This document shows positions 47,789-54,186 of a DNA stretch of 64,000 bases, one piece after another (positions within the stretch are counted from its first letter, which is position 1; each line of letters opens with the position of its first letter). Made by a program: the position numbers and the translations under genes. The stretch comes from a virus. The stretch is from UHGV virus genome UHGV-0236300; one strand, given 5' to 3'. Below the pieces are notes generated by a model. It did no database searches. It saw only the letters and a list, made by a program, of their open reading frames with translations, and was not told the DNA's origin.

Positions 47789-48199
47789 ATGGTGTCTCCT
47801 TTATGTTGTTCAAATAAAATCGGAGATTCCACAATGGAACAAATGAACGATCAAGCGTCGGTTGCGATGAACGAGCAAGAACAACCTCAAGAATTTTTCT
47901 TAGGGTTAAGCAAAGATCAAGTGTCTCTTCTGCTGGTACTTTCTTCTTTCATGGGGAGACTTCAGGAGCTCACACAACAACCAGAGGCTGAACAGTTATT
48001 CCAGGCTCTGCGAGAAGAAGAGAAATATCGTCGTTTGGATTATGCCTTAGGTTGGGTAGCTCAACAACGAGATATGCTAATGGCCCTTTCTGGGACGACG
48101 AGTTTTGCAATGGGCCTGTTAGCTCAAGTCCAGGACAAATTAATTCAAGCAGGGTTTGCACATACATCAACCACTAACGAAGAACAAGGAGATAAATAA
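47789..48199 (+). CDS. hypothetical protein
   Basis: RBS AAGGAG; stop overlaps next start. Confidence 0.55.
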   Translation: MVSPLCCSNKIGDSTMEQMNDQASVAMNEQEQPQEFFLGLSKDQVSLLLVLSSFMGRLQELTQQPEAEQLFQALREEEKYRRLDYALGWVAQQRDMLMALSGTTSFAMGLLAQVQDKLIQAGFAHTSTTNEEQGDK

Positions 48200-49425
48200 T
48201 GAGCGTTATCCAACAATTTGCTAACCCGATGAATCCGCGTGAAACTGTTTTACTGGCTCACGGTATGATTAAACGTGTCAGCATCAAGCCCATTAAAGGT
48301 GCTGATCCTACAACAGGTATTAAAACCACTGTGTGGCAAGGTAAGAAAATTGAATCCAGCCACACCATCTCTTTACTGATTTCTGAACTGGACTCCTCTG
48401 ATAACCTGCTCCAAGGTGGTGAAGAAGTTTGGATCAGCATGGGTGATAAGCTGCTTAAGCCTGGTCATCAAGACTCCGTCTCTGTTAAAATTGATGACAA
48501 GTGGGAAACAGTAACGCCAGGATGGATCGTAAATATCCCTTTAAAGGCAAATGAGCATAACGGTAAGACCTACTACAAAGGCTCACTGGCTAAAATGGTT
48601 AAGTTGGGGGCAGGAGAGGCTCCATCAGCTCCACAGCAACAAAAACAGCAACAAGGCACACAATCACAAGGCCAGAAGCAGAAACCTCAGCAGAATGCCA
48701 ATCAGGACGTTTTACGCATCTATGGTGATGTGACTCAGATTGTTGGTAACGTGGTTACTGTCAATGACCACAAGATTGGCGAAGGTGCTATGGTTGTCTC
48801 CGATGAGCAGCTTAAAGACCTGGTGGTTGGCGGTCGTGTTGCAGCTATTGTTGACAAAGACACCGGGAATATTATCAGCGGCTTCAAGGCCTACCCGCCT
48901 AAAGCAGAGAACGGTACACAAGGTTCTGGTGGTAAGCGTAAATCCTCTTACGACCCCATCGGTGTAGAGACAGGGCACAGTATCAATGCATTGCAGATCA
49001 TCCTGGATCGCGGGTTTAAGATTGACAGCCCTTTAGATGTGGCTAAAACACTGCACGTGGTCACCATCGAGCTTAAGAAAGAGTACGCTCAAGCCACTAA
49101 CCGAACTGAAGATGAAGTAGGTGCCAGTGTTGGTAATGCGGTATTGAACGCTTGTCGCCGTATTGACAAGAAAACGAAAGTTGATGATTTTGCAGTAGCA
49201 ATTACTGCAGAGGCAAAAGATGTCTTGACTAATCTTGCTGAACCGTTGTATGATTGGATCAAGAACGGTGCTGGAGCCACTGACCATCAAGAGCCTCAAG
49301 CTGCCAAACAGGAAGCCGCCCCACAGCAAAACACTGTAGACGCTCCTCCTGTAGATGATGCGGAAGACGACCCGATGGATCAGAATCCGGCACAGTACGC
49401 CTTTGATGATGACATACCTTTTTAA
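48199..49425 (+). CDS. SSB-like single-stranded DNA-binding protein with acidic C-terminal tail
   Basis: C-terminus ends DDDIPF (canonical SSB partner-binding tip); Q/G-rich linker; terminator follows. Confidence 0.5.
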   Translation: MSVIQQFANPMNPRETVLLAHGMIKRVSIKPIKGADPTTGIKTTVWQGKKIESSHTISLLISELDSSDNLLQGGEEVWISMGDKLLKPGHQDSVSVKIDDKWETVTPGWIVNIPLKANEHNGKTYYKGSLAKMVKLGAGEAPSAPQQQKQQQGTQSQGQKQKPQQNANQDVLRIYGDVTQIVGNVVTVNDHKIGEGAMVVSDEQLKDLVVGGRVAAIVDKDTGNIISGFKAYPPKAENGTQGSGGKRKSSYDPIGVETGHSINALQIILDRGFKIDSPLDVAKTLHVVTIELKKEYAQATNRTEDEVGASVGNAVLNACRRIDKKTKVDDFAVAITAEAKDVLTNLAEPLYDWIKNGAGATDHQEPQAAKQEAAPQQNTVDAPPVDDAEDDPMDQNPAQYAFDDDIPF

Positions 49426-49440
49426 CATCTAGTTAACATA

Positions 49441-49470
49441 GCCCTACCCGAAAGGGTGGGGCATTTTTGT
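49441..49470 (+). terminator. rho-independent terminator
   Basis: GCCCTACCC-GAAA-GGGTGGGGC hairpin plus T-run. Confidence 0.7.
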
Positions 49471-49487
49471 ATAGAGAGGACTGAAAA

Positions 49488-49904
49488 ATGACATTAGAAG
49501 ATATCATTGTTAAACCTGAGAACTATGACCAATACAATCTATCAACCCAATCTGTGGACCTTGGATGCGCCACTGTCAGTGCGTGGCTGGTTAACGGAAA
49601 AGAGTTGGATAAATGCTTAGAAGCTCACATGACTGTGAACAAGTTCCTTGATGAAAATACTCACTGGCTGGAAGGTGCAGGTGTATACGCTTCGTGGCTA
49701 GAGAGTATGGGATTTGACTACCAATCTGAAGAGGGGTGGTGGAGCTATCTGGCTATCTGTCCAGAGACATTGCAATGCTTCATGAAATATTCTGAAGATT
49801 TGGAGTACCGGGCGGTGGTTGACAGTGCTATTGCTCGTTATAGCCGTAAACCTTTTTCCCACGACATTAAAACTGTGGAAGAATTTGTTGAAGTTTTCTG
49901 TTGA
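49488..49904 (+). CDS. hypothetical protein
   Basis: RBS GAGAGGA. Confidence 0.55.
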   Translation: MTLEDIIVKPENYDQYNLSTQSVDLGCATVSAWLVNGKELDKCLEAHMTVNKFLDENTHWLEGAGVYASWLESMGFDYQSEEGWWSYLAICPETLQCFMKYSEDLEYRAVVDSAIARYSRKPFSHDIKTVEEFVEVFC

Positions 49905-50000
49905 CACAGGTTGTAAGGTGTGCAATTATAACCTTGTAGAGCTGGAGGATGTGATGAACGAAGAAAACTGGGATGTGTAACTAACAGGAGGCCACTGCCC

Positions 50001-50198
50001 ATGATTTATCGAATCCGTGTGAGAGAAGATGCACCAGGTTGTTACTTTGACTGGCGTGGGTGGTGGTTTCTCCACCCAATGGATGGACTCACAGATAGAA
50101 TGCTGGATGCTGCCCTTTACACAGATACCGACATAGAGTATAATCTTTACTTGAAAGATGGTATCGATAACGGCCTGTTTGAAGCAATTCCTGCGTAA
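50001..50198 (+). CDS. hypothetical small protein
   Basis: RBS CAGGAGG. Confidence 0.5.
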   Translation: MIYRIRVREDAPGCYFDWRGWWFLHPMDGLTDRMLDAALYTDTDIEYNLYLKDGIDNGLFEAIPA

Positions 50199-50263
50199 GA
50201 GAATGTGATCGCCATGTTTTATGATCTTCCTGTAGCACCACCTATTGATCCTGGAGAACTACG

Positions 50264-50689
50264 ATGATTTATGAAATGCCAAAACTGATTCGTGACGATG
50301 CACGAAACGCCCACACCTTTATTATGGGCAAGCGCATGGATATTATTTGTCACAAAGACTTCTGGGAAGGGAGCTACTTCACAGAATATTTTGGAAAAAT
50401 GGATGATGGCCTACTGATCCAGTTTTACACCGATGCGGAAAACAACATTAGTTGGGAGTTCGAGACCGAAGATATCCATAAACTTTTCACCTTCCTTGGT
50501 ATTAAGATTAAGGCCAAGTTTGAAGAGGGAGAGTGCGACGATTGTGGATTTTATGAGGTAACAGATTTCTATCTTCCGAGCGGTAAAAACCTTTACTATG
50601 AAAGCCACTTCGGTAACTCCAATATGCCACAGTGCTGGACTGAGTTTTTTGAAATTGTGGAAGAGGAGCTGGAATATCGTGATTATTGA
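50264..50689 (+). CDS. hypothetical protein, translationally coupled to macro-domain gene
   Basis: RBS GGAGAA; stop overlaps GTG start of next gene. Confidence 0.55.
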   Translation: MIYEMPKLIRDDARNAHTFIMGKRMDIICHKDFWEGSYFTEYFGKMDDGLLIQFYTDAENNISWEFETEDIHKLFTFLGIKIKAKFEEGECDDCGFYEVTDFYLPSGKNLYYESHFGNSNMPQCWTEFFEIVEEELEYRDY

Positions 50690-51137
50690 TACTGTAGAGG
50701 GAGATTTAATCTCCCTTTTTAAGAGCGGTGCTGGTCACCTGATCCACGGTTGTAACTGCTTCCACACAATGGGTAAGGGTGTAGCAAAACAGATTGCCCG
50801 TGAGTTCCCTCAAGCATTGGAAGCTGATAAAATGACTATGCACGGTTGCCTAAGTAAACTGGGCGCGTTCTCCCGCTGGGAGCACTTATCTCCGAGAGGT
50901 ATTGTCTACGGAATAAATCTGTATACTCAGTTCTACCCAGGGCCTAATGCTGAATATTTCTCAATACTGAAAGGATTTGAGCGAGTCAATGAAGTATTTG
51001 AGGGGTCGATTTTACCATTCTACATCCCTAAGATCGGGTGCGGCATAGGCGGTTTGAAGTGGGAACATGTAGAGGACATTATTAACCTTGCCACTTTTGA
51101 TATAGATATTATCGTGGTGGAGTACAAAGAGTGTTGA
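50679..51137 (+). CDS. macro-domain protein (Poa1p-like ADP-ribose processing family)
   Basis: Motif LIHGCNCFHTMGKGVAKQIAREFP resembles Poa1p-type macro domains as I recall them; GTG start 10 nt after GAGGAG. Confidence 0.5.
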   Translation: MIIDTVEGDLISLFKSGAGHLIHGCNCFHTMGKGVAKQIAREFPQALEADKMTMHGCLSKLGAFSRWEHLSPRGIVYGINLYTQFYPGPNAEYFSILKGFERVNEVFEGSILPFYIPKIGCGIGGLKWEHVEDIINLATFDIDIIVVEYKEC

Positions 51138-51162
51138 CAGCTATATTTTAAGGTGGTATAGT
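51134..51162 (+). promoter_or_regulatory. sigma70-like promoter
   Basis: TTGACA-17-TATAGT. Confidence 0.55.
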
Positions 51163-51191
51163 CACCACAACGATTAAGACAGGGGAGCACT

Positions 51192-51386
51192 ATGGAGACT
51201 AAAATCTTAATTCTAGCTGTGATAGATACAACAGAAGGAGCCATGTTTGAATCTGCAGGAGGGTATTTCTACCTGCCCTACGGAAAAAGAACTTCCGAGC
51301 CGAGTAAAGATTCAATCCTCAAAGTGTTCCCGTGTGCTTTCTGGCTGGAGATTCTGGTAGAAGATTGCAGAGGCTTGGGGAGATAA
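51192..51386 (+). CDS. hypothetical small protein
   Basis: RBS AGGGGAG. Confidence 0.5.
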   Translation: METKILILAVIDTTEGAMFESAGGYFYLPYGKRTSEPSKDSILKVFPCAFWLEILVEDCRGLGR

Positions 51387-51388
51387 TT

Positions 51389-51583
51389 ATGAGAAACAAG
51401 AAAGAGCTTTACTCTGGCGAGTGGATAAACGATCAACAGGTAGGAGAGGTAACCTGCTTCCGTTGCTTTACTCGGTACAATCTTAAAACTGCACCAAAAA
51501 GTGTTCCAAAGACTGACGGTTATTACATAAAAGAACCTCATTGCCCGAAGTGTAAATGCCGAGTATACTGGAGTAACCTGTAA
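51389..51583 (+). CDS. small zinc-ribbon protein
   Basis: ATG after GGGGAG; CFRC...CPKCKC. Confidence 0.5.
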   Translation: MRNKKELYSGEWINDQQVGEVTCFRCFTRYNLKTAPKSVPKTDGYYIKEPHCPKCKCRVYWSNL

Positions 51584-53008: not shown

Positions 53009-53116
53009 ATGGACTTCCTCCTTTTGATATTTTACCTGGCCGGATATTTTAAAATTCTTAGAAAATCAGAAAATGGATCGAAAACTAAAATGGATTTTTC
53101 AAGACAGGCGCGATAA
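53009..53116 (+). CDS. small hydrophobic peptide (35 aa)
   Basis: Not in ORF track; ATG 7 nt after AAGGAGGA; RBS lies in GGAGGA...TCCTCC inverted repeat. Confidence 0.35.
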   Translation: MDFLLLIFYLAGYFKILRKSENGSKTKMDFSRQAR

Positions 53117-53274
53117 GATGTGCTGCTCATTCTATCGTTCGCACCGTACTTTAAGTTACTATTCCAGATTTTCCGCACATACTCTCACCCTTCTACCAGA
53201 ACTTTCCCAGCTTACCTTTGACCCTTTATAACAATAAACCCATTATTCTCAGTAGGTTTTGATACATCTCTCTC

Positions 53275-53440
53275 AGTACTCGATCTGTTTTTCGTTTCAA
53301 AGATTGAATTTTCTGAAAATTTTTCTCGATAAATTTCTTAGTACTCGATCTGTTTTTCGTTTTCTGAATCAGATTTTCTGGAAATCGTTCCGGAGCTCGA
53401 CCTGAAATTTTTGGGGACGAAATCGATTTTTCGTTTTCGG
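53275..53440. repeat. direct repeats (23-bp iterons, each with a GATC site) in non-coding DNA
   Basis: AGTACTCGATCTGTTTTTCGTTT at 53275 and 53340; degenerate copies at 53392-53440. Confidence 0.6.
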
Positions 53441-53565
53441 AAATGGATTTTTAAAATTTGTATATGGAAATACTTAAGGAGGTATTATTTTATATAGAAT
53501 TGTCACGGTAGGTAATTAGCATGCTAACTAAATTTATGAAATGCGAAAAGTTCTCATTTAGAATT

Positions 53566-53584
53566 TTGAATGATAATCATTCTC
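53566..53584 (+). promoter_or_regulatory. Fur-box-like operator (copy 1)
   Basis: TTGAATGATAATCATTCTC matches 16 of 19 positions of Fur consensus GATAATGATAATCATTATC. Confidence 0.45.
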
Positions 53585-53698
53585 GTTTGCAGAATAACGG
53601 GCACCCCCGGTGATTGTCTCCCGGCCCCTGTTGCCCCGGCTTGTTATTATAGTATCACACAGGACAAAGAAAGCAAGGATTTTTTGCATAAATTTTTA

Positions 53699-53720
53699 AA
53701 TGATAATGATAACCGTTCTC
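53699..53720 (+). promoter_or_regulatory. Fur-box-like operator (copy 2)
   Basis: GATAATGATAACCGTTCTC matches 16 of 19 Fur consensus positions. Confidence 0.4.
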
Positions 53721-53941
53721 ATTTTATGCAGCGCCCATCCCCGGTGGTTGTCTCCCCCGTCACCGGTGCCTGCCGTCCTTTCGATAGGTATATTGTGCCA
53801 CCTGGCGGGGCCGCTGTCAACACTTTTCAAAAAAATTCTAACCTGATGCGCTAACCGTTGCAACCTGGCGGGGCCAGCCTGGCAGGGCTATGCTATAGGG
53901 TAGGCAACAACTGAAGAGGAGGTACAAAAATAAAAGGTAAT

Positions 53942-54103
53942 ATGATCCCTGGAAATGTAGCGATTAATGACGCTGAGGCTATCGCCCTGGTTGAAAAGGC
54001 TATGGCGGGAGCGTTGGAACATAAAGAAGAGTACGAAAAAATGATGGTTAACCTGGCAGGGGCGGCGGCTGGAGAATTCTGCCCAAAAAATAATTCTAAC
54101 TAA
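53942..54103 (+). CDS. small hypothetical protein (53 aa)
   Basis: Not in ORF track; ATG after GAAGAGGAGG. Confidence 0.45.
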   Translation: MIPGNVAINDAEAIALVEKAMAGALEHKEEYEKMMVNLAGAAAGEFCPKNNSN

Positions 54104-54186
54104 TGGTTGACAGCTCGGATAGTTCTGTTATTCTTATCCTCGCAAGGTGAACAACACCACACTAATTAACAGAGAGGATAAAAATC

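What the first reader, a model, noticed from the sequence alone, without database searches (positions are those of the whole stretch)
50264..51137. Macro-domain protein translationally coupled to an unknown upstream gene
The protein at 50679-51137 has a Poa1p-type macro-domain signature (LIHGCNCFHTMGKGVAKQIAREFP), implying ADP-ribose binding or hydrolysis. Its GTG start overlaps the stop of a 141-aa unknown protein (50264-50689). A writer-eraser or toxin-antidote pair, or a counter to host ADP-ribosylation-based immunity, is possible.
Basis: inference. Interest (0 to 1): 0.6.

Follow-up and report, generated by a model that had tools for sequence, protein, structure and literature searches.

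The report
Phage anti-DarT macrodomain gene (Tk.4/AdfM)
This is the rV5-type phage copy of the T4 Tk.4/AdfM macrodomain, an enzyme that most likely strips ADP-ribose off phage DNA to defeat the bacterial DarTG2 defence. The unknown gene overlapping its start looks like an unrelated neighbour, not a toxin or a "writer" partner.

Summary
The window is a Vequintavirus (rV5-like) phage, 99.9% identical to Escherichia phage ECP26. GenBank annotates the same two genes there: 50264-50689 (141 aa, hypothetical) and 50679-51137 (152 aa, GTG start, "macro domain protein"), overlapping by 11 nt.

**Macro protein.** It is a confident macro fold (pLDDT 97) of the TARG1/DarG/SCO6735/Poa1p class and a full-length homolog of T4 Tk.4 (41-43% identity). 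A 2025 preprint showed T4 tk.4 to be the anti-DarTG2 factor AdfM. The family keeps the ADP-ribose-site Asn26. It has a nearly invariant Gln84 where DarG and TARG1 have the catalytic Lys, as in SCO6735, which removes thymidine-linked ADP-ribose from DNA.

**The pairing.** It is not supported.
- The 141-aa family occurs in 177 phage records, against 2810 for the macro.
- It lies 9 kb from tk.4 in RB49 and in a different order in a third lineage.
- It has no ADP-ribosyltransferase or toxin signature and no known fold.
- Both genes tolerate transposon insertions in the related phage Bas54.
- Start/stop overlaps occur at 27% of same-strand junctions in this genome.

**Verdict.** A new member of a known kind, of modest interest.

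The parts
50679..51137 (+). 152-aa standalone macrodomain protein with a GTG start, of the Tk.4/AdfM family. Predicted DNA (thymidine-linked) ADP-ribosyl glycohydrolase that counters DarT2.
   Evidence: Pfam Macro 32 bits against GA 22. phrog_335 E 1e-60. 41-43% identity to T4 Tk.4 and 70% to RB49 Tk.4. AF2 pLDDT 97. Foldseek hits to TARG1, Poa1p, DarG and SCO6735. N26 invariant and H23, Q84 and the G120-G125 loop nearly invariant in 94 homologs.
50264..50689 (+). 141-aa acidic protein (pI 4.4, net charge -17) of a rare phage-only family (phrog_8157), function unknown. Conserved C-terminal motif: C91-x2-C94 ... E113-x-H115-F-G.
50679..50689 (+). 11-nt overlap between the macro GTG start and the upstream TGA stop. 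This is a translational-coupling geometry.
   Evidence: Sequence. Conserved in rV5 and Bas52/55/56/58. Replaced by an ATG start with a 4-nt overlap in IMG/VR contig L009. Such overlaps occur at 27% of same-strand junctions in this genome.
50661..50666 (+). GAGGAG Shine-Dalgarno for the macro gene, inside the end of the upstream gene.
   Evidence: Read from the sequence. Conserved in the Vequintavirus junctions printed.
50116..50144 (+). Sigma-70-like promoter candidate (TTTACA-17-TATAAT, 11/12), 120 nt upstream of the 141-aa gene.
   Evidence: Present in relatives, but it lies inside the coding sequence of the 65-aa ORF, so its conservation is confounded. Inference only.
51134..51162 (+). Sigma-70-like promoter (TTGACA-17-TATAGT with an extended TG) whose -35 box overlaps the macro stop codon. 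It marks the start of the next transcription unit.
   Evidence: Conserved in all seven Vequintavirus loci checked. Function is inferred.

Best explanation
The 152-aa protein is the Vequintavirus ortholog of T4 Tk.4 (AdfM). It is a standalone macrodomain, probably expressed early from host-type promoters. It hydrolyses the ADP-ribose that the host toxin DarT2 attaches to thymidines in single-stranded phage DNA. This restores replication and defeats the DarTG2 defence system.

Chemically it should work like SCO6735 rather than like DarG or TARG1. A conserved Gln (Q84, motif NLYTQ) takes the place of the catalytic Lys. With Asn26, His23 and the glycine-rich loop GCGIGG it would position the distal ribose for attack by water.

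The 141-aa acidic protein upstream is a separate accessory early gene of unknown function. In this genus it simply shares the message and a coupled start/stop junction. It is not needed for, and not specifically tied to, the macrodomain.

- **Shown here:** gene structure, fold, family membership, conserved site residues, and the lack of conserved linkage.
- **Shown by others for homologs:** the anti-DarTG2 phenotype of T4 tk.4, and removal of thymidine-linked ADP-ribose from DNA by the Gln-type enzyme SCO6735.
- **Inferred:** that this particular protein has the same substrate and role.
For: **Homology to T4 Tk.4/AdfM.**
- tblastn gives 41% identity over 150 of 152 residues to T4/T2 Tk.4 and 70% to RB49 Tk.4.
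- The alignment shares HGCNCFHTMG, NLYTQFxPGPN and PxIGxGIG.
- T4 tk.4 was the single HIDEN-SEQ hit on a DarTG2 host, and a clean knock-out sensitised T4 to DarTG2 (bioRxiv 10.1101/2025.11.20.689424).

**Class assignment.**
- Profile against PDB: Mtb DarG macro 2.9e-18, SCO6735 6.1e-18, BT1257 1e-17, TARG1 7.6e-17, Poa1p 4e-15.
- The NCBIfam and PADLOC top hits are DarG, matching its macro part only.
- The AF2 model has pLDDT 97, with TM 0.75-0.85 to TARG1, DarG and SCO6735.

**Active site.**
- N26 is invariant. H23, Q84 and G120/G122/G125 are at least 90% conserved in 94 homologs.
- Q84 aligns with DarG Lys, TARG1 K84 and SCO6735 Q85.
- SCO6735 Q85A is inactive, and SCO6735 cleaves DarT-made thymidine-ADP-ribose (PMC9411070).

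**Accessory, dispensable character, as expected of a counter-defence gene.**
- T4 tk.4 is non-essential, with 45 of 46 TA sites hit.
- Bas54 orthologs bas54_0091 and bas54_0092 are non-essential, with 21/23 and 31/31 TA sites hit.
- Natural deletions and truncations exist.

**Independence of the two genes.**
Against: - No experiment exists for any Vequintavirus macro protein, and identity to T4 Tk.4 is only about 42%.
- The T4 evidence is a preprint. It shows genetics (the knock-out is sensitive to DarTG2), not enzymology.
- Macrodomains of this class are promiscuous. Poa1p is an ADP-ribose-1''-phosphate phosphatase and TARG1 acts on proteins, so other substrates are possible.
- The macro and 141-aa genes lie close together in two lineages: adjacent in Vequintavirus and about 1.2 kb apart in L010/L011. 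A loose functional association therefore cannot be ruled out.
- Promoter calls are consensus matches only.
Confidence: 0.68

Rival explanations
1. The two genes form a toxin-antidote or writer-eraser pair. The 141-aa protein would ADP-ribosylate a target or be toxic, and the macrodomain would reverse or neutralise it.
For: The stop and start overlap by 11 nt, with a Shine-Dalgarno inside the upstream gene. This geometry is conserved in Vequintavirus. Macrodomains are antitoxins in DarTG.
Against: - The upstream family is found in 177 phage records against 2810 for the macro family.
- In RB49 it sits next to dam, 9 kb from tk.4.
- In L010/L011 the order is macro, then about 1.2 kb, then the homolog.
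- All 31 of 31 TA sites in the macro ortholog of Bas54 tolerate insertions with no fitness loss.
- Bas56 has a truncated upstream gene with an intact macro gene.
- The two genes have discordant divergence, for example dS 0.50 against 1.30 versus rV5 and 0.87 against 0.20 versus Bas58.
- Overlaps are generic in this genome, at 25 of 93 junctions.
Confidence: 0.04
2. The macrodomain acts on a substrate other than DarT2-modified DNA. Candidates are ADP-ribose-1''-phosphate or O-acetyl-ADP-ribose (the 'phosphatase' of the old annotation), ADP-ribosylated host or phage proteins or RNA (for example countering CmdTAC-like or other ADP-ribosyltransferase defences), or ADP-ribose-derived immune signals.
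For: - It shares the Poa1p N-terminal motif (H23, T30 for S30) and scores 4e-15 to Poa1p.
- Databases annotate the family as a phosphatase or O-acetyl-ADP-ribose deacetylase.
- The family is very widespread, in 2810 phage records across many hosts. This may exceed the reach of DarTG2 alone.
Against: - The only genetic phenotype known for the family is DarTG2-specific: tk.4 was the single significant hit on a DarTG2 host.
- The closest characterised Gln-type enzyme, SCO6735, is a thymidine-ADP-ribose DNA hydrolase.
- The 'phosphatase' names are transferred annotation, not tests.
Confidence: 0.2
3. The 141-aa acidic protein is a second counter-defence factor that co-operates with the macrodomain. 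For example it could bind and inhibit DarT2, as the C-terminal domain of DarG does, so that the pair would be a 'split DarG mimic'. It could also be a DNA mimic against another system.
For: - It is co-transcribed and coupled with the macro gene in Vequintavirus and lies within 1.5 kb of it in L010/L011.
- Its RB49 homolog is coupled to dam, another DNA-modification and anti-restriction gene.
- The family is strongly acidic throughout, with pI 4.1-4.5.
- It is non-essential on K-12.
Against: - It has no similarity to the DarG C-terminal domain or to any solved structure.
- Most Tk.4-type macro genes, including T4's functional AdfM, work without it.
- Acidity is common among small phage early proteins.
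Confidence: 0.08

Closest known systems
T4 Tk.4 = AdfM (anti-DarT factor, macrodomain), bioRxiv 10.1101/2025.11.20.689424
   Same: Full-length homolog (41-43% identity, about 150 aa) with the same motifs HGCNCFHTMG, NLYTQ and P-IG-GIG. It is a standalone macrodomain, an accessory early gene, and non-essential on K-12.
   Different: - It belongs to a different phage family (Straboviridae against Vequintavirinae).
- Its upstream neighbour is vs with a 4-nt overlap, not the 141-aa gene.
- It has an ATG start rather than GTG.
- The window's protein has no experimental data.
Streptomyces coelicolor SCO6735 (PDB 5E3B) and Bacteroides BT1257 (2FG1/2AFC)
   Same: Same macro class. Gln occupies the position of the DarG/TARG1 catalytic Lys (Q84 against Q85), and both have the His-x-Cys-Asn motif and the GCG-x-x-GG loop. 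SCO6735 removes thymidine-linked ADP-ribose from DNA, and Q85A abolishes this activity.
   Different: They are cellular, SOS-regulated proteins, not phage counter-defence factors. Identity is about 22-23%, and SCO6735 is longer, with extra loops.
DarG antitoxin macrodomain (Mtb 5M3I, T. aquaticus 5M31/5M3E)
   Same: Best sequence and profile hit (2.9e-18), with TM about 0.75. It has the same Asn (N26 against N22) and the same predicted substrate, thymidine-ADP-ribose on ssDNA.
   Different: - The window's protein lacks the catalytic Lys (Gln instead).
- It lacks the C-terminal DarT-binding domain: 152 aa against about 340, and 47 bits against the 250 cut-off of the NCBIfam equivalog.
- There is no adjacent darT.
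Chimallivirus AdfM (PhiKZ gp104), PMC13309987
   Same: A phage-encoded standalone macrodomain that removes T-ADPr and counters DarTG2. It carries the same name and has the same functional logic.
   Different: It is only 21-24% identical (hhalign probability 97.7%). It is a Lys-type enzyme (FPTK, K78) with ITVNVVG instead of HGCNCFH. It is expressed late and imported into the phage nucleus. This is a separate branch, probably acquired independently.
Yeast Poa1p (6LFQ-6LFU) and human TARG1 (4J5R)
   Same: Same ALC1-like/TARG1-like macro class. TARG1 is the best Foldseek hit (TM 0.78/0.85). Poa1p shares the LIH-x-CNC N-terminal motif.
   Different: Poa1p is an ADP-ribose-1''-phosphate phosphatase, and the sequence match is confined to the N- and C-terminal segments. 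TARG1 uses a Lys84/Asp125 dyad, and both residues are absent here (Q84, G124).

Membership tests
Tk.4/AdfM-type phage macrodomain (T4 AdfM family, phrog_335) | Full-length sequence homology to T4 Tk.4. | tested here: met
   tblastn gives 41% identity over residues 1-150, E 1e-32. The MAFFT alignment gives 43%. phrog_335 E 1e-60.
Tk.4/AdfM-type phage macrodomain (T4 AdfM family, phrog_335) | Macro fold of the TARG1/DarG class, as a single-domain protein of about 150 aa. | tested here: met
   AF2 pLDDT 97. Foldseek hits TARG1, Poa1p, DarG and SCO6735 with TM 0.7-0.85. The protein is 152 aa with no extra domain.
Tk.4/AdfM-type phage macrodomain (T4 AdfM family, phrog_335) | Conserved site residues: Asn in HGCNC, Gln in NLYTQ, and the glycine loop GxGIGG. 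| tested here: met
   N26 is invariant. H23, Q84, G120, G122 and G125 are at least 90% conserved in 94 homologs. All are shared with T4 Tk.4.
Tk.4/AdfM-type phage macrodomain (T4 AdfM family, phrog_335) | Protects the phage from DarTG2 and removes thymidine-linked ADP-ribose from DNA. | not testable with these tools
   Only the T4 homolog has been tested, by genetics. This needs plaque assays and enzymology.
DarG antitoxin (type II TA DarTG) | Catalytic Lys (Taq K80) in the macrodomain. | tested here: not met
   Gln84 aligns with the DarG Lys (NFPTK against NLYTQ).
DarG antitoxin (type II TA DarTG) | C-terminal DarT-binding domain and an equivalog-level score. | tested here: not met
   NCBIfam NF048014 scores 47 bits against a cut-off of 250. 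The match covers profile positions 3-143 of 338 only.
DarG antitoxin (type II TA DarTG) | An adjacent darT toxin gene. | tested here: not met
   Five flanking and nearby ORFs (48199-51386, including both immediate neighbours) have no Pfam hit above a family cut-off, and the upstream neighbour has no PADLOC hit. The upstream protein has no ADP-ribosyltransferase fold.
Toxin-antitoxin or writer-eraser gene pair | Conserved co-occurrence and adjacency of the two genes across lineages. | tested here: not met
   177 against 2810 phage records. The genes are 9 kb apart in RB49. They are in a different order with about 1.2 kb between them in L010/L011. There is no macro gene within 4 kb upstream in L014.
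Toxin-antitoxin or writer-eraser gene pair | The partner has a recognisable toxin or ADP-ribosyltransferase domain. | tested here: not met
Toxin-antitoxin or writer-eraser gene pair | Loss of the antidote is deleterious while the toxin is present. | tested here: not met
   Literature data for Bas54: the macro ortholog bas54_0092 has 31 of 31 TA sites disrupted and is classed 'Non-essential'. The upstream ortholog has 21 of 23 disrupted. Orthology is inferred from identical gene lengths and order.
Poa1p-type ADP-ribose-1''-phosphate phosphatase | Sequence and fold similarity including His23 and Ser30 of Poa1p. | tested here: inconclusive
   H23 is conserved and T30 replaces S30. By single sequence only the N- and C-terminal segments align, while the profile E-value is 4e-15. 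TM is 0.70-0.74, lower than for TARG1 and DarG. The activity itself cannot be tested here.

The most novel reading that the evidence does not exclude
The rare, strongly acidic 141-aa protein family has no detectable relative among solved structures. It could be an undescribed counter-defence factor that works with the macrodomain, for instance by binding DarT2 as the C-terminal domain of DarG does. The coupled Vequintavirus pair would then be a DarG mimic split into two genes. Alternatively it could be a DNA-mimic inhibitor of another DNA-targeting defence, which would fit its coupling to dam in Krischvirus.
Probability: 0.07. Interest if true: 0.55.

Novelty: new member of a known kind. Interest (0 to 1): 0.25.

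Why it matters
The result assigns a concrete, testable role to a gene that rV5-like phage records call 'macro domain protein', 'phosphatase' or 'hypothetical'. That role is anti-DarTG2 counter-defence by DNA de-ADP-ribosylation. These phages are candidates for therapy and biocontrol of pathogenic E. coli, so the gene bears on their host range.

It also shows that the two phage protein groups both named AdfM are chemically different branches. The T4/rV5 Tk.4 type carries Gln like SCO6735, and the PhiKZ type carries Lys like DarG. This matters for mechanism studies and for annotation.

Finally, the analysis removes a tempting but unsupported toxin-antidote reading that rested only on a start/stop overlap.

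Tried and rejected
**Function of the 141-aa protein.**
- Pfam, NCBIfam, PADLOC, and PDB phmmer and profile searches found nothing.
- PHROGs gave only an unknown-function family.
- The afdb50 library was not available.

**Exhaustive HMMER search with the family profile.**
- It found about ten genuine small-protein clusters.
- It also returned several long eukaryotic repeat proteins (VWD, helicase-associated and Ig domains). I rejected these as spurious multi-stretch matches after a Pfam scan.

**Context of the distant members.**
- tblastn with distant members P0113, P0119 and P0122 recovered only the same Vequintavirus and Krischvirus records.
- The genomic context of the metagenomic members could not be looked up, because the look-up tool is restricted to other protein sets.

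**Other checks.**
- I considered the longer ATG-initiated ORF 50598-51137 (179 aa) as the macro gene. I rejected it because the homologs start at the GTG position and the extension lies in another frame of the upstream gene.
- I looked for tRNA or Rfam elements near the locus and found none.
- I did not scan the whole window for a distal ADP-ribosyltransferase 'writer'.

Full report
**What the window is.**
The 2.8 kb around the finding is 99.9% identical to Escherichia phage vB_EcoM-ECP26. It is 91-99% identical to more than a hundred rV5-like phages (Vequintavirus). These are a 426-nt 'hypothetical protein' and a 459-nt 'macro domain protein' that overlap by 11 nt. The type phage rV5 has carried the same pair since its first annotation, as gp205 and gp204 'tk.4 phosphatase'.

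**Check of the observation.**
- Both ORFs and the quoted motif are present.
- The macro gene starts at GTG 50679, preceded by GAGGAG at 50661-50666. The upstream TGA is at 50687-50689.
- The GTG start is correct. Homologs in rV5 (GTG), RB49 (ATG) and T4 (ATG) start at the same residue, MII/MIV. The longer ATG ORF from 50598 runs through another frame of the upstream gene.
- Both genes are under purifying selection against other Vequintaviruses, with dN/dS 0.06-0.08 for the upstream gene and 0.10-0.19 for the macro gene.
- The overlap is real but ordinary. In 42 kb of the ECP26 annotation, 25 of 93 same-strand junctions overlap, three of them by 11 nt.
- T4 tk.4 overlaps its own, unrelated upstream gene vs by 4 nt.

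**The macro protein: fold and class.**
- Pfam Macro is above threshold, at 32 against 22 bits.
- PHROG 335 matches at 1e-60.
- The top NCBIfam and PADLOC hits are DarG, but only over its macro part and far below the equivalog cut-off (47 against 250 bits).
- A 94-sequence alignment gave an AlphaFold2 model with pLDDT 97.
- The best solved matches of that model are TARG1 (TM 0.78/0.85), Poa1p, the DarG macrodomains, SCO6735 and BT1257.
- The family profile hits Mtb DarG (2.9e-18), SCO6735 (6.1e-18), BT1257, TARG1, Taq DarG and Poa1p, in that order.
Poa1p is not the closest relative.

**The macro protein: functional identity.**
- By tblastn the protein is 70% identical to RB49 Tk.4 and 41% identical over its full length to T4/T2 Tk.4. 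The family is present in 2810 phage records.
- A November 2025 preprint found tk.4 to be the single conditionally essential T4 gene on a DarTG2 host. A clean knock-out became DarTG2-sensitive, and the authors named the gene adfM.
- tk.4 is otherwise dispensable, with 45 of 46 TA sites hit.
- Earlier work had predicted such a factor, because T4 lacking adfA and adfN stays DarTG2-resistant (PMC11825919).

**The macro protein: active site.**
- Asn26 is invariant. It corresponds to Taq DarG N22 and PhiKZ AdfM N23, where N23A reduces activity.
- His23, Gln84 and the GCGIGG loop are nearly invariant.
- Gln84 (NLYTQ) aligns with the catalytic Lys of DarG (NFPTK) and TARG1 (K84), and with Gln85 of SCO6735 (NMIGQ). 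T4 Tk.4 has the same NLYTQ.
- SCO6735 hydrolyses DarT-made thymidine-ADP-ribose on DNA, and Q85A kills this activity. A water-mediated mechanism has been proposed for it (PMC9411070).
- The Tk.4/AdfM family is therefore a Gln-type enzyme.
- The other phage protein named AdfM, PhiKZ gp104, is a Lys-type, DarG-like macrodomain (K78). It is only 21-24% identical to the window's protein. The two 'AdfM' groups are separate branches.

**The upstream 141-aa protein.**
- It has no Pfam, NCBIfam, PADLOC or PDB similarity. Its only family assignment is phrog_8157, of unknown function.
- An exhaustive profile search of 1.84 billion representatives found only about ten genuine clusters of proteins of about 140 aa. 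The long eukaryotic hits are spurious.
- Among isolated phages the family exists only in Vequintavirus and Krischvirus, in 177 records.
- Invariant residues cluster in the C-terminal half: C91-x2-C94, G95, G107, H115-F-G, P122, W125 and F128. An acidic residue always sits two positions before H115. This suggests a Cys2-His-Glu/Asp metal site, but that is an inference.
- All members are strongly acidic, with pI 4.1-4.5 and net charge -16 to -23.
- The AF2 model is fairly confident (pLDDT 84, pTM 0.79). It has two beta-meander-plus-helix halves.

**Are the two genes a functional pair?**
- About 94% of phage records with a Tk.4-type macro gene have no homolog of the 141-aa protein.
- In RB49 the homolog (ORF064c) is coupled to dam and lies 9 kb from tk.4, which follows vs as in T4.
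- In two 138-140 kb IMG/VR contigs (L010, L011) the macro gene comes first and the homolog lies about 1.2 kb downstream, behind several small ORFs. A third contig (L014) has no macro gene within 4 kb upstream.
- Within Vequintavirus the two genes have discordant histories. Against rV5, dS is 0.50 for the upstream gene and 1.30 for the macro gene. Against Bas58 it is 0.87 and 0.20. This implies recombination between them.
- Bas56 has an N-terminally truncated upstream gene with an intact macro gene.
- One assembled 135.5-kb genome carries an in-frame deletion. It fuses residues 1-55 of the upstream protein to residues 85-152 of the macro protein at a shared QFY microhomology.
- Transposon data for the Vequintavirus Bas54 class both genes as non-essential: bas54_0091 with 21 of 23 TA sites hit and bas54_0092 with 31 of 31. 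Orthology is inferred from identical gene lengths and order.
- Losing the supposed antidote therefore costs the phage nothing. The toxin-antidote and writer-eraser readings are not supported.

**Expression.**
- A sigma-70-like site lies at 50116-50144, 120 nt upstream of the 141-aa gene.
- A conserved TTGACA-17-TATAGT site has a -35 box that overlaps the macro stop codon. Together the two sites bracket the pair.
- No terminator-like site lies between them.
- This fits an early bicistronic message read by the host polymerase, which is when an anti-DarT enzyme would be needed. This step is inferred.

**Verdict.**
- The macro gene is a new, untested member of a recently characterised kind, the Tk.4/AdfM anti-DarTG2 macrodomain. 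Its Gln-type active site is a useful mechanistic footnote.
- The upstream gene is an orphan acidic protein of unknown function and unmatched fold. Its link to the macro gene is positional and specific to one genus.
- Interest is modest. The residual novelty lies in the orphan family.

Noticed in passing
window 53116-54175: About 1 kb has no annotated gene in ECP26. It includes an AT-rich dip (GC 0.32 at 53200-53599). It holds three direct repeats of about 47-55 nt spaced 65-74 nt apart (53266-53451) and further repeats spaced about 130 nt apart (53540-53760). There is no tRNA or Rfam match. It looks iteron-like or regulatory.
   Followed up: partly
window 48199-49425 (+): This 408-aa protein of unknown function (phrog_4477) ends in ...AFDDDIPF, the C-terminal tip motif of E. 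coli SSB (from my own knowledge). Its size-and-synteny ortholog bas54_0087 is 'Essential' in Bas54, with 8 of 57 TA sites hit. It may be a phage single-stranded-DNA-binding or SSB-mimicking replication protein.
   Followed up: partly
window 49425-49488, compared with L006 1536-2159 (rV5 gp208): rV5 and Bas54 carry a homing-endonuclease gene between the 408-aa gene and the 138-aa gene. The window and ECP26 lack it. They have only a 62-nt spacer with a terminator-like hairpin at 49441-49462.
   Followed up: no
L007 2501-2866 (Logan ERR11560567 contig, 135.5 kb); also P0022, P0036, P0053: A natural in-frame deletion fuses residues 1-55 of the 141-aa protein to residues 85-152 of the macro protein at a shared QFY microhomology. 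Several other Vequintavirinae-size contigs encode truncated or frameshifted macro genes. The locus is therefore repeatedly lost.
   Followed up: partly
window 50264-51137, compared with L006 and L015-L018: The two adjacent genes have discordant synonymous divergence. Against rV5, Bas52 and Bas55, dS is about 0.5-0.6 for the upstream gene and 1.2-1.3 for the macro gene. Against Bas56 and Bas58 it is about 0.8-0.9 and 0.2. This indicates recombination breakpoints at or near the gene junction.
   Followed up: partly
window 51389-51583 and rV5 gp201; L003 3446-3640 (RB49p090): rV5 gp201, two to three genes downstream of the macro gene, is annotated as similar to the RB49 gene immediately downstream of RB49 tk.4. 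RB49 Tk.4 is 70% identical to the window's macro protein, against 41% for T4. This suggests that a small tk.4 module was exchanged between Krischvirus and Vequintavirus.
   Followed up: no
phage collection hits MG0656xx (for example H18, H22, H23, H33): Sixteen records named 'Campylobacter phage' with host C. jejuni are 92% or more identical to E. coli Vequintaviruses across this locus. They are probably mislabelled or contaminant genomes.
   Followed up: no
P0116 and P0114 (metagenomic proteins); L010 3398-3631: Some members of the 141-aa family are chimeras. P0116 joins a Cys-rich, homing-endonuclease-like N-terminus to the conserved C-terminal half. The N-terminus of P0114 matches a separate small ORF in L010. 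The conserved C-terminal CxxC...HFG half seems to be the mobile functional unit.
   Followed up: no
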